Positions 15,291 to 57,750 of a DNA stretch of 64,000 nucleotides are shown here, in pieces. Under the pieces are notes generated by a model. That model did no database searches, had not been told where the DNA came from, and saw only the letters and a list, made by a program, of their open reading frames with translations. The DNA is from Octopus sinensis. Lineage: Eukaryota. Position 1 is the stretch's first letter, and every line of letters starts with the position of its first letter. Made by a program: the position numbers and the translations under genes. The stretch covers positions 118,978,001 through 119,042,000 of the forward strand of contig NC_042999.1 of assembly GCF_006345805.1 (NCBI RefSeq), read 5' to 3'.

Positions 15291-16569
15291 AGGCCACTCT
15301 GGTTGATAACACTTATGATTAAAGATGTTCCAGCCTTGACCATCTCCTTTTATTGTATAGCAATGATTACATTACACTTCTAATGCAACTTTCCTTCTTT
15401 TAAGATAGTAGGGTATGATATGATATGATGGAGATTTAATTTATATTTCTAGCATGTCAACCAATTACACAGAGGTTTTTCTTATTGCTCCACCTTTTAT
15501 TAAGTAAGTATCACCAGTGATATAACTCACAATGTAATAAGCAGAATCAGTGAAAATGCAGGGCTGATGAATATTTCATTGCCTTACAATGCAATATTCA
15601 GCTCTTCCTATGGGAAAATTCAATCAGTAATATATTTACCTCTTACACAGATGATTTACCAGTTCAATGCTTTGGAAACTCAAGTGGAAAATTAGTCATG
15701 TCGACAGTTCAGATTTAAAAGCCATTAGTTTTAGTTGGTTCCTCAAAGGATACAAAATATTAGAAATGCTCTGATCAACAAGCTATGCCAAAAGGCATCA
15801 AAGTGCACCTCTATGCTTTCAAACCGAATTGCATTTAATGCAAGACATTTTTACTACAATTTCCCCAAGGTACCACACTTCAATAATTTATATTTTAATT
15901 ATTCTCTGCATAGTTACGGGCTGCCCTTTGGCAAGGCATAGCTCCTTTTCAACCACTCTGTCAGGGACATGGTGAAGTCATGGGATTGGAGCATGGAACA
16001 TTTCGAAGAGGTAGTAGAAGAGCTCAGCTGAGTCAACAGTGCTTCTTACATTGATACTGAGTGGAGGAATCCTTGAAGATCAACAGTCAGGATTACCAAA
16101 CTCTATTAAGACAGTAACTGCAAAGCATCCATAGGAGTGGCCTCCATGGTTGTATAATCAGTTAATGAATAATTGACCTTGACTCAAGCCTGAAGACTCT
16201 ATCTCCTCTCAAGAATAGCGAGCAGAGTGGCAATGGAGAGTCATTGGGAATCCATACAAGCAGCATAATTGAGATGATGATGTACTAACTATTTACGACA
16301 GCAATGGTAATATGCGTAATATATGAAAGAGTAGAGTTTAGGATATACATTCAAGATAGGAAGCACAGTTTTGAAATGGTTGACAGCAAGTTCAAAGTTG
16401 AATCCAGTGTGATGTATTTGTTCATCAGGAATGAAAATCTAATTCTTTATTCAATAGTATAAGGGTTGAAGGGCTGGTTGACCTTGTGATCTTTTACATA
16501 CTATAATTTATGATCTTTTATATACTATAAAAGCATAATTTGTTGAAGAATTACATAAAATTTTCCATA

Positions 16570-16705
16570 GATACAGGTATGGCTGTGTAGTAAAAAGCTT
16601 GCTTCCCAACCACATGGTTCTGAGTTCAGTTCCACAGTCTGGCACCTTGAGCAAGAGCCTTCTATTATAGTTTCAAACCAACCAAAAGCTGGTGAGTTGA
16701 TTTGG
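16570..16705 (+). mobile_element. SINE family A 5' fragment
   Basis: Homologous to 14869-15005. Confidence 0.75.
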
Positions 16706-17394
16706 TATGATACATTACAAATGTATCCTATGAATCATTACAAATTTACATGGCAACTATAAGGTAAAAAAAAAAACTAGTGACATCCTTTTAGGCATTG
16801 GTTATTTTAGGAGAAACTCACATTGTGTCAAGTATAATTTTATCGTTTACTTGAAATGAATTTACTGTTTTACACTGCAGTTATTTTTTTTAATTTGCAA
16901 ATTCTGACTTCCTTTACAAGACTATTTGTCAGACTGTCATTGAATTGTTTACTCTTATTTTTTGTCGTGTCATTCTATGCAGTTCATCAGCAGCTGCAGA
17001 TGGCAACAAGTGCATGTCAACTTTAAATTGTGTTAGGTTTAAAATATATTCTAATTCATTTAATGTAGCTTTACTGTTATTAATCTAACTCCCAAATATT
17101 TCTGCACTTTACAGTTGGAAATATTGAGTGGTAGGATTACATGAGCTCTATGAGTATTTCATCCAGCAAATATTATGATTCAGATTTTATACTTTTTTCA
17201 AATGATTCCTGTTTTGCTAGTGACTTTTTCTAAGGTTCAAATTCTGTCTTATACACTACAACATATACAGCAATTAACAGTGTCTGTTATATTAAATGAT
17301 TTAAGTAGTGTTGAAAAAAGGTTGTAGTGAAAGAATTGTTGTTGGATTTTGTAAACAGTGGAAGCAATTCATTTAGATGTTGCTTTAATTTCTT

Positions 17395-17985
17395 TCCTTT
17401 ATCTCTTTACTTGTTCCTGTCTTTAAATGGCTTCCATATTGAAACACCAGCTTGAAGAATTTTTTAAAGCCTGGTATTTATTCTATTGATCTCTTTTGCC
17501 AAACTGTTAAATTACAGAGATATAAACAAAGCTGTCCATCTTCCAAATCAATTCACATGCTTTTGGTTGGCTTGAAACTATAAAGGAAGACACTTGCCCA
17601 AGTTGCTAGGCTGTGGGACTGAACTCAGAACCATGTGGTTGGGAAGCAAGCTTTTTACTACACAGCCATACCTGTACCTATGGAAAATTTTGTGTAATTC
17701 TTCACCAAATTATGCTTTTATAGTATATGAAAGATAATAAACCATAGTATGTGAAAGTTGTCAAGTAGTGGTGAGAGATGAACACAGACACAAAGACATG
17801 CATACATCGATATATATTTATATATATGATGGAATTCTTTCAGTTTCCTTCTACCAAATCCACTCACAAGGTTTTAGCCTGTCTGAGGCTACAGTAGAAG
17901 ACACTGGCCCAAGGTGCCATGCAGTGGAACAAAACCTGGAACCATGTGGTTGGGAAGTAAGCTTCTTACCACACATCCATACCTG
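17395..17985 (-). mobile_element. SINE family A interrupted by an inverted local duplication (17535-17757)
   Basis: The consensus breaks after ...GATATAAACAAAGC and resumes at GTTGTCAAG (17757). Confidence 0.75.
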
Positions 17986-18389
17986 CATCTGTTGATAAAC
18001 AGTTTCTCTTTTCATGTGAAAATGAGACCAGATGAAGTATATGCAAGAAGTGAGATGGTGTGAGGTGTACATAAGCGTTGGATGTGGAATATCACTAAGT
18101 CTGAAGAGAATGAGATGAGCTCAATTGAGAAGTGAGTAAAAGTGAGTTGAGGTTCTGAGTTTAAATTGCATCAGTTGGTGTATTCAAGAAGGTTGACTGT
18201 GTTAATATGAACCTGTAATATCAGCATGTGAAACATATACATATATAGTTACAACAAAATTTTATATCTTGGACATGTATATATATATATATATATATAT
18301 ATATATGTGTGTGTGTGTGTGTGTGTGAGTGTGTGTGTGTGTATAAATATAAACATATATATCTATATATCTATATATATATACGTTTA

Positions 18390-56102: not shown

Positions 56103-56429
56103 CCTTGTTGTTGTCATTGTTGTTGCTGTCTGGTATCCCAGGTAAGGCCCAATCAAGCAACTTGGCCATGATGGATCACAACCTTTAAAGATTTAGTCAA
56201 ACAAATCAACTGGAACTTATTTTAAGTGTTACTTATTCCATTGGTCTCTTCTTCCAAACCACTAAGTTAAAGGATCATAGACAGATACCAATTGTCAAGT
56301 GATGGTGGTGGGACAAATACAAAGATGCACATACATCATCATCATCATCCTCATCATCATGGACTGGCCATGTTTATACATATACACATGTATGTATGTC
56401 TTTTCTTTCTCTTTTTAATTTTGTGTAAA

Positions 56430-57145
56430 CTTTTTGACTTTCTACCTACTTTGTAGCAAGGTTGTGAAGGAAAGCGTCTTGCTTTGTTCATCATCCTTTA
56501 AATTTTATGAAGGTCTTGCAGGTTTTGTAGTCTCAGATTCTATGATCATTTGTGATCATTAAGTATTTGCATTCTATGACCAACAGCCCATACATTCCTC
56601 GAGATGGGATGGCATGTATCTTGTTGCTCTAATAATAATAGGTATGAAGCTGAAAGTATATCTTGGGTACTGGATTTTCAAATTTCTCATCAATGGTCCA
56701 TAGATATCCTCTTTATCGTGTATTTTTCTAACCACATTGGTGTCCAGAGGGCAGCTGATTTCCTTAACAAAACATATTTTCCTTGCAACTCCACACAACA
56801 ATATCTGGCCAGTTGTACTTTAATTTAGTGGCCATTTAATTATTCAAGTTTCACCAATATTCTATTGACCCATCAATGTCTCAATATCATCAGCTTCATC
56901 TGTAGAAGTTTTCTTTTTTGTTATCCTATTCCAGACCATTCTGGCCACTGCATTATACCTCATGGGAAGATTATATCTAGAAGACATTCTCTTGCAGCTG
57001 GCAATAATGTGGTTGATGTCTTAAGTCTTGGGCTTGCAAAGCCTAGATTTGTTGTCTGTCGGTGTTTTCAGCCTCTTATTTATGATGTATGTACTTGGTA
57101 GGGATCTCTTGTCCCTGAATTGCATGGAGGTAGCCTTCAAAGTGT
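56430..57145 (-). pseudogene. Decayed RLE-type LINE 3' region
   Basis: RLCKPKT*DINHIIASC knuckle remnant, RPDI, EISCPLD, FIPIII. Confidence 0.7.
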
Positions 57146-57164
57146 TTGTGTGTGTGTGTGTGTA

Positions 57165-57750
57165 TGAGGGTTGGTTGATTAGTTCATAGGCTGACCAAAA
57201 TAATAAGGTTTATTTTTCAGTATAGTCACTGTTGTGGTCCACACATTTCTTCCATTGCTGTTGAGATGCTGGGATCCCATTGGGGAAGAGGTTTTCATCC
57301 TGTTACTCAAAATAAGTCATCAACAGCAGATATGACAGAATCATCAATGCAATACTGGTTCCCATCCAAGTATATTTTCATGTTGGGGAAGAGATAATGG
57401 AGATTATCTCGGTCAGCCTATGAACTTATCAACCAGCCCTCACACACACATGTGCACGCACACGCGCGCACACACACACAAGCACTTCGAAGGCTACTTC
57501 CATGCAAATTCAGGGACAAGAGATACCTACCAAGTACCTACAGCATGAGTAAGAGGCAGAAAACACTGATGGAGCCAAATCAGCTGATTAGGGCAGCAGA
57601 CCAAACAGTTCAAAACCAGTCATGCACAGCAACCATTGAAACCAAGGACTTGTGTGCAGGAGCATTGTGTTGATGAAACAAGATCCCTTTCAGCAGTTTT
57701 CCTTATTGTTTTGTCTTGATAGCCTTTTGTAACTGCCTCAGCAAGTTGGC
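57165..57750 (-). mobile_element. Mariner 3' fragment interrupted by an inverted local duplication (57403-57570)
   Basis: TA|TGAGGG terminus. Minus strand reads KGILFHQHNAPAH and ..ADLAP (YSPDLAPSDY remnant), broken at the insertion. Confidence 0.75.

What the first reader, a model, noticed from the sequence alone, without database searches (positions are those of the whole stretch)
16491..57570. Recurrent locally templated inverted insertions that split older elements
Seen four times: 17543-17757 from 16491-16705, 35008-35206 from 31576-31773, 49178-49872 from 51705-52388, and 57403-57570 from 57058-57204. Three copies span junctions between unrelated or rearranged sequences, so they are not independent transposon insertions. 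Three land inside a SINE or mariner whose consensus resumes on the other side. Divergence differs between pairs, implying a long-running process. Inference: frequent template-switch repair (polymerase-theta- or MMBIR-like) or RT-mediated copying of local RNA. If transcribed, each pair forms long dsRNA, the substrate of ADAR, which is very active in coleoid cephalopods.
Basis: partly seen in the sequence, partly recalled or inferred. Interest (0 to 1): 0.75.

Follow-up and report, generated by a model that had tools for sequence, protein, structure and literature searches.

The report
Local DNA-repair copies in octopus genome
Four 150-700-base stretches were copied backwards into nearby older repeats, most likely while chromosome breaks were being repaired; this is a known kind of scar that also occurs forwards in this genome, and it may be about ten times denser here than in vertebrates.

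Summary
All four inverted pairs are real and local: each full unit occurs only twice in the 2.7-Gb genome, and the copy splits a SINE, a SINE, a (TA)n tract or a mariner. Junctions show microhomology, 0-13 bp of host loss and no poly(A). Pair 2 has two donors on opposite strands, its junctions are spanned by contigs from a public run, and a relative appears to hold only the donor. This matches repair-mediated duplications (Pace et al. 2009): donor under 5 kb away, about 160 bp, interrupting transposons. The 'inverted' emphasis fails: in 1.6 Mb sampled outside the window, curated local pairs were 27 inverted and 22 direct (p=0.57), falling off past about 4 kb. Many short inverted pairs here are dispersed two-armed repeats instead. 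Possibly new: 3-6 transposon-splitting events in 0.42 Mb of repeat DNA (7-14 per Mb; human 0.62), from small numbers and a different method. The dsRNA/ADAR idea is untested. The scan noted similar single scars in cat and shark DNA.

The parts
16491..16705 (+). Pair 1 donor: 70 bp of unique flank plus the 5' ~145 bp of a SINE that is truncated here
17535..17757 (-). Pair 1 acceptor: inverted copy (aligned 17543-17757; SINE-like for 8 more bases than today's donor)
17467..18001 (-). Pair 1 host SINE, split by the acceptor, both halves in one orientation, about 0-1 bp lost
   Evidence: (83 spanning copies)
31576..31773 (+). Pair 2 main donor, single-copy DNA; appears single-copy in organism E
32808..32829 (+). 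Pair 2 second donor, copied in direct orientation (16 exact, 20 of 22)
   Evidence: 3e-5 expected by chance within about 6 kb
34983..35206 (.). Pair 2 acceptor: ~25 bp direct piece from 32808, then 199 bp inverted copy of 31576-31773
34853..35340 (+). Pair 2 host SINE, split, about 13 bp lost
   Evidence: (18 spanning copies)
49178..49872 (-). Pair 3 acceptor: inverted 695-bp copy inside a (TA)n tract; keeps 8-bp and 3-bp stretches that the donor has lost
51705..52388 (+). Pair 3 donor, inside a rearranged LINE-derived repeat that continues on both sides (51355-53422; weak RVT_1 match at 51797-51988)
57059..57204 (+). Pair 4 donor: ~96 bp of unique flank plus the end of the mariner copy
57403..57569 (-). 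Pair 4 acceptor, inverted copy
57155..57750 (-). Pair 4 host: decayed mariner-like transposase piece, split right after a 'DLAP' stretch (motif identity recalled)
10831..11364 (+).

Best explanation
These are inherited local copies that split older repeats, most likely made at chromosome breaks when a 3' end primed on nearby DNA through a few matching bases, copied 150-700 bases and rejoined the other end (repair-mediated duplication). The end can likely use either strand of DNA within about 4 kb, so inverted and direct copies both arise; the window holds four inverted ones and one direct. Pair 2 records two template switches to opposite strands on the same side of the break, so at least one template was likely duplex DNA (sister, homologue or fork) rather than the broken end's own single strand. 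Shown: copies, hosts, junctions, both orientations, distance limit. Inferred: the break, the priming, the pathway (SDSA/MMBIR-like); the polymerase cannot be told from sequence.
For: Whole units unique to the two local places. Hosts resume on both sides in one orientation. Junction microhomology read by eye against host-family copies: about 4 nt and an imperfect stretch at pair 1, 7 nt at the right of pair 2, 4 and 6 nt with (TA)n at pair 3, 2 and 2 nt at pair 4; host loss 0-13 bp; no poly(A). Two-donor acceptor at pair 2, like 20 of 1,136 human cases (PMC2671141). Contigs of run X4 cover the pair 2 junctions with no differences (34953-35059; 35030-35235, only 29 letters past the right junction). 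Run X13 (organism E) has the unit at single-copy depth (48.9 vs 52.6 and 48.4 in flanks) in a 1636-bp contig whose flanks are unlike the acceptor's, and its orthologous left-flank contig runs on without the copy. Survey: 54 of 76 local pairs kept, median gap about 1.2 kb, median length about 120 bp, longest reach 4.1 kb, close to the human values (mean 1.2 kb, 162 bp).
Against: Microhomologies were not tested against a null and are short; pairs 1 and 4 are about 10% diverged, so their junctions are blurred. Contig support exists for pair 2 only, and X4 may be the assembly's own sample. The pair 1 donor SINE ends within 8 bases of where the copy ends, a coincidence that a simple insertion does not explain (a deletion in the same event or later is needed). 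Only 21 of 54 curated pairs could be polarised, and 1 of 5 spot-checked curated pairs was a dispersed family. Second templates were not enriched across junctions (6 of 224 vs 66 of 3000 random). A 6-bp repeat flanks the pair 4 acceptor, compatible with a target duplication.
Confidence: 0.82

Rival explanations
1. Fold-back (snap-back) synthesis by polymerase theta or delta on the broken end's own resected strand, a route that gives inverted copies only, is the dominant process here.
For: All four listed copies are inverted; microhomology at junctions; the ~4-kb limit could be a resection length (inference). Fold-back inverted insertions are described in yeast (PMC11724301, start of abstract).
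Against: Direct copies are about as common (27:22; 22:20 for gaps of 350 bp or more). Pair 2 includes a direct piece from the same side as its inverted piece. The yeast fold-back insertions are mostly 5-34 bp.
Confidence: 0.09
2. A retrotransposon reverse transcriptase (LINE or Penelope-type) copied local nascent RNA into nearby nicks; most plausible for pair 3, which sits in (TA)n.
For: Pair 3 joins (TA)n on both sides; earlier scan notes describe Penelope-type insertions into TA tracts in this genome (unchecked), and TA-flanked two-armed families are dispersed.
Against: No poly(A); no clear target duplication at pairs 1 and 2; two donors on opposite strands at pair 2; donors lie on both sides (3 left, 1 right in the window); no host exon found.
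Confidence: 0.05
3. The pairs are breakpoint duplications of small inversions made by staggered breaks, or termini of mobile elements.
For: Other inverted pairs in the window are dispersed two-armed elements. One contig of run X8 joins the pair 2 left host flank and the unit and then runs on unlike the window.
Against: Host halves keep one orientation across each acceptor; whole units are not found elsewhere; the X8 contig is at depth 6.6 with 21 of 30 bins covered and may be a graph chimera.
Confidence: 0.03
4. Assembly or amplification chimeras.
For: Amplification chimeras are often inverted and local (recalled).
Against: Copies differ by 0.4-10% with a transition excess (29 transitions, 15 transversions); the pair 3 acceptor keeps ancestral bases that its donor lost; contigs from a public run carry the pair 2 junctions.
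Confidence: 0.01

Closest known systems
Repair-mediated duplications (RDs), Pace, Sen, Batzer and Feschotte 2009, PMC2671141 (main text parts 1-6 of 8 read; Table S1 part 1 of 15)
   Same: Insert of 50 bp or more that interrupts a transposon; single donor within 5 kb (mean 1.2 kb); mean 162 bp; microhomology, filler, small deletion, no poly(A); two-donor cases; made continuously over time.
   Different: Described in vertebrates only; 0.08-0.65 per Mb of transposon DNA against about 7-14 here (small sample, other method); pair 3 (695 bp) exceeds their 619-bp maximum and sits in (TA)n; their filters would drop inserts made of repeat pieces (pairs 1, 3, 4). They give no orientation count (4 uses of 'orientation' in the text, no strand column in Table S1), so a vertebrate ratio cannot be compared.
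Germline templated insertions linked to MMBIR (MMB-TIs), Osia et al. 2021, PMC8421209 (passages read)
   Same: Inverted insertions near their template with microhomology or microhomeology; multi-template events that switch direction; germline variants.
   Different: Templates were searched within 100 bp; here they are 0.2-3.2 kb away.
Doublets, Thomas et al. 2004 (paper not held; as described in PMC2671141, polarity recalled)
   Same: Short local duplications, proposed break-repair origin.
   Different: Under 100 bp and near-identical; recalled as mostly same-strand, whereas here both strands are used about equally.
Fold-back inverted insertions at breaks in yeast, PMC11724301 (search listing and start of abstract only)
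   Same: Inverted templated copies at double-strand breaks.
   Different: Mostly 5-34 bp, and inverted only.

Membership tests
Repair-mediated duplication (Pace 2009) | Insert of 50 bp or more splits a transposon whose consensus resumes within +/-30 bp | tested here: met
   Pairs 1, 2, 4; pair 3 host is a microsatellite, not a transposon
Repair-mediated duplication (Pace 2009) | One donor, 50 bp to 5 kb away | tested here: met
   Gaps 837, 3234, 1832, 198 bp; whole units unique (searches score the best 40 candidates only)
Repair-mediated duplication (Pace 2009) | Microhomology, filler or small deletion; no poly(A) | tested here: met
   read by eye, no null for microhomology
Repair-mediated duplication (Pace 2009) | Empty orthologous site in a relative | tested here: inconclusive
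Repair-mediated duplication (Pace 2009) | Formed at a double-strand break by SDSA | not testable with these tools
   Inferred from scars, as in the original paper
Fold-back / snap-back inverted insertion | Copies are inverted only | tested here: not met
   27 inverted, 22 direct outside the window; direct piece inside pair 2
Retroposed (TPRT) insertion | Poly(A) tail and target-site duplication | tested here: not met
   No tail; repeats of 4 and 3 bp at pairs 1 and 2, 6 bp at pair 4, (TA)n uninformative at pair 3
Terminal repeats of a dispersed element | Same unit with the same ends elsewhere in the genome | tested here: not met
   Not met for the four pairs; met for 19059-19615 and 44739-45388
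ADAR substrate | Both arms in one transcript, with clustered A-to-I edits | not testable with these tools
   No raw RNA reads were available for this stretch

The most novel reading that the evidence does not exclude
This octopus lineage makes or keeps repair-mediated duplications at ten or more times the vertebrate density (roughly 20-30 per Mb, tens of thousands per genome, about 0.5% of the DNA), from either strand and with a sharp reach limit near 4 kb. The genome would then be a natural read-out of how far a broken germline end can search, and a steady source of young near-perfect inverted pairs.
Probability: 0.35. Interest if true: 0.5.

Novelty: new member of a known kind. Interest (0 to 1): 0.3.

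Why it matters
The class is known from vertebrates; my searches listed no paper on it in cephalopods. If the density holds genome-wide, local repair copying is a sizeable source of small duplications in octopus, able to copy exons and regulatory sites, and donor distance and strand could be measured on thousands of events. As a single locus it is ordinary scar tissue with no sign of function.

Tried and rejected
Inverted bias: the raw survey gave 44 inverted and 32 direct. Short-gap TA-flanked inverted pairs proved to be dispersed families where tested (also 19066-19345). After dropping 22 of 76 (2 shown dispersed, 10 of like anatomy untested, 1 LTR pair, 2 element-related, 5 tandem-like, 2 with 8-bp target duplications) the bias vanished. 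(TA)n as preferred break site: 7 of 56 events against 2.1 expected, P=0.0035, but one of the 7 then proved to be a dispersed family and two others are of similar build, so I do not claim it; TA fragility is reported in cancer cells (PMC13645644, passages). An independent interrupted-repeat pipeline (output partly cut) gave 404 redundant sites, mostly nested elements; 9 rows had a full local donor, of which I count 4 (2 in the window, 2 direct outside); it missed pair 4. Second templates across all junctions: no enrichment. Host gene: Pfam scan of the top-ranked candidate frames plus two LINE frames (123 sent; 231 candidates listed) gave only retroelement domains and weak hits. No RNA holder listed. 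Contig evidence covers pair 2 only; pairs 1, 3 and 4 remain without it. Thomas 2004 and a 2015 deletion-breakpoint paper were not held. Literature searches returned mostly unrelated papers. Only part 1 of 15 of Pace Table S1 was seen; Figure S1, with junction alignments that could show orientation, was not read.

Full report
Observation. Self-alignment of the window recovers the four inverted pairs at the stated coordinates. Substitution identities are 90.2%, 97.5%, 99.6% and 89.7%, with 29 transitions and 15 transversions in all. The window is contig C3:118978001-119042000 of a 2.72-Gb genome; earlier scan notes call it octopus. Each whole unit is found only at its two local places, within the limits of a search that scores 40 candidates.

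Direction and hosts. Joining the flanks of each copy and searching 1.66 Mb of sampled DNA plus search loci gave spanning intact repeats for one copy only: 83 for pair 1 (SINE), 18 for pair 2 (another SINE), 9 for pair 4 (mariner-like); the pair 3 acceptor lies between (TA)n tracts. The pair 3 donor lies inside a LINE-derived repeat that continues on both sides, while the acceptor stands alone; both copies share a ~115-bp deletion absent from dispersed copies, and the acceptor keeps 8-bp and 3-bp stretches that the donor lost. The LINE inversion inside unit 3 is shared by dispersed copies, so it is not itself evidence. The pair 4 host reads as a decayed transposase split after 'SADLAP' (the mariner motif is recalled). 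Host halves keep one orientation, which argues against inversion breakpoints.

Junctions. Against host-family copies, pair 1 loses about 0-1 bp with a 4-nt overlap on one side and an imperfect one on the other; pair 2 loses about 13 bp (also, table 5c) with 7 nt shared at the right; pair 3 shares 4 and 6 nt with (TA)n; pair 4 shares 2 nt on each side and has a 6-bp flanking repeat. These were read by eye. The ~25-bp filler of pair 2 matches 32808-32829 in direct orientation (16 exact, 20 of 22; 3e-5 expected). One insert thus copies two templates, 2.2 and 3.2 kb away on the same side, on opposite strands. That fits iterative template switching on duplex DNA and does not fit one RNA template or pure fold-back (inference).

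Reads. Contigs of 4 of 24 listed runs were laid on 34610-35640. X4 covers the left junctions (34953-35059) and the right one (35030-35235, 29 letters beyond) with no differences; it may be the assembly's own sample. X1 shows the unit at about 1.5-2 times flank depth. X13 (organism E) shows it at single-copy depth within a 1636-bp contig whose flanks do not fit the acceptor, and its left-flank contig leaves the window at 34958 without the copy: the donor is likely ancestral and the acceptor younger than that split. One low-depth X8 contig joins the left host flank and the unit and then runs on unlike the window: an inversion between the copies or a graph chimera, unresolved.

Is it frequent, and inverted? 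I took 1.6 Mb at coordinates fixed in advance: 200 kb on each of seven chromosomes and 100 kb each side of the window. Locally specific pairs (85% or more, 50 or more unmasked bases, better than any match on another sampled chromosome) number 9.6 per Mb per kb of distance at 40-4100 bp, 0.32 at 4.1-10 kb and 0.1 beyond. Of 76 pairs with gaps of 40-4600 bp, 44 were inverted. Short-gap TA-flanked inverted pairs were dispersed families where tested. After dropping 22, 54 remain; outside the window 49, 27 inverted and 22 direct, p=0.57, 31 per Mb. Spot checks of five of these, not random picks: four unique as whole units, one dispersed, so 31 per Mb is an upper figure. Four inverted copies in 64 kb has P about 0.02-0.03.

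Known class. Pace et al. 2009 (PMC2671141) define repair-mediated duplications by the same test: inserts that interrupt transposons, donor within 5 kb (753 of 824 within 3 kb), mean 162 bp, microhomology, filler, deletion, no poly(A), some with two donors, formed continuously, ascribed to SDSA. The four pairs meet the testable features. Their densities are 0.62 (human), 0.18-0.26 (other mammals), 0.19 (zebrafish) and 0.08 (chicken) per Mb of transposon DNA. Outside the window I count 6 transposon-splitting events by eye from 15 automatic calls (4 direct, 2 inverted) in 0.42 Mb of detectable repeat DNA: 14 per Mb (95% range 5-31), or 7 per Mb (1.5-21) for the 3 whose inserts are mostly non-repeat, two of them checked genome-wide. 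The methods differ and their filters are stricter, so the excess is a lead only. MMB-TIs (PMC8421209, passages) describe similar multi-template germline events at shorter range.

dsRNA. A co-transcribed 700-bp, 99.6% inverted pair would pair (established knowledge), but no host exon was found. Dispersed-family inverted matches within 5 kb outnumber these pairs 111 to 33, although these give 4 of the 6 long near-perfect ones, one of which may be the dispersed family. Editing is untested.

Verdict. Real and correctly read as template-switch repair; a new instance of a class described in 2009; not an inverted-only process. Interest 0.3, resting on the possibly high density and the ~4-kb reach.

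Noticed in passing
window 19059-19615: A 557-bp near-perfect palindrome ending in (TA)n; its arm belongs to a young dispersed family (96-100% identity, 1488 candidates), so it is an element, not a local fold-back.
   Followed up: partly
window 44739-45450; L037:1100-1640; L105:1640-2470: Three more dispersed families that occur as head-to-head arms of unequal length beside (TA)n; the build resembles the two-armed Penelope-type insertions of earlier notes, not tested here.
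   Followed up: partly
window 16706-16745: The pair 1 donor SINE stops within 8 bases of the copied end and is followed by a short direct repeat; possibly a deletion made in the same event (loss plus inverted copy).
   Followed up: no
window 31410-31692 / 34415-34795: An older direct local duplication (75-79%) overlapping the pair 2 donor and ending near the acceptor: the same stretch was copied twice, once each way.
   Followed up: no
window 46908-49131: Inverted arms (86%) enclosing (AAT)n tracts and a 1.4-kb non-LTR retrotransposon 3' piece (47320-48747, zf-RVT match) inserted in (AAT)n.
   Followed up: partly
window 54493-56102: A 1.6-kb palindromic array of degenerate TTAA/GCAA-type units flanked by inverted purine tracts.
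   Followed up: no
window 50800-53422: A dispersed LINE-derived family whose copies carry a fixed internal inversion of the RT region.
   Followed up: partly
window 7667-8401, 37718-38817, 38894-40097: Young tandem arrays with 184-, 157- and 340-bp units (92-98%).
   Followed up: no
L155-L156 (C14 sample 2050-12196), L095-L096 (C5 sample 9857-13505), C7 sample 55955-71532: Clusters of mixed direct and inverted local copies, possibly multi-jump events or nested two-armed elements.
   Followed up: no
window 34951-35206, run X8: A contig joins the pair 2 left host flank and the unit and then runs on unlike the window; possible inversion between the two copies.
   Followed up: no
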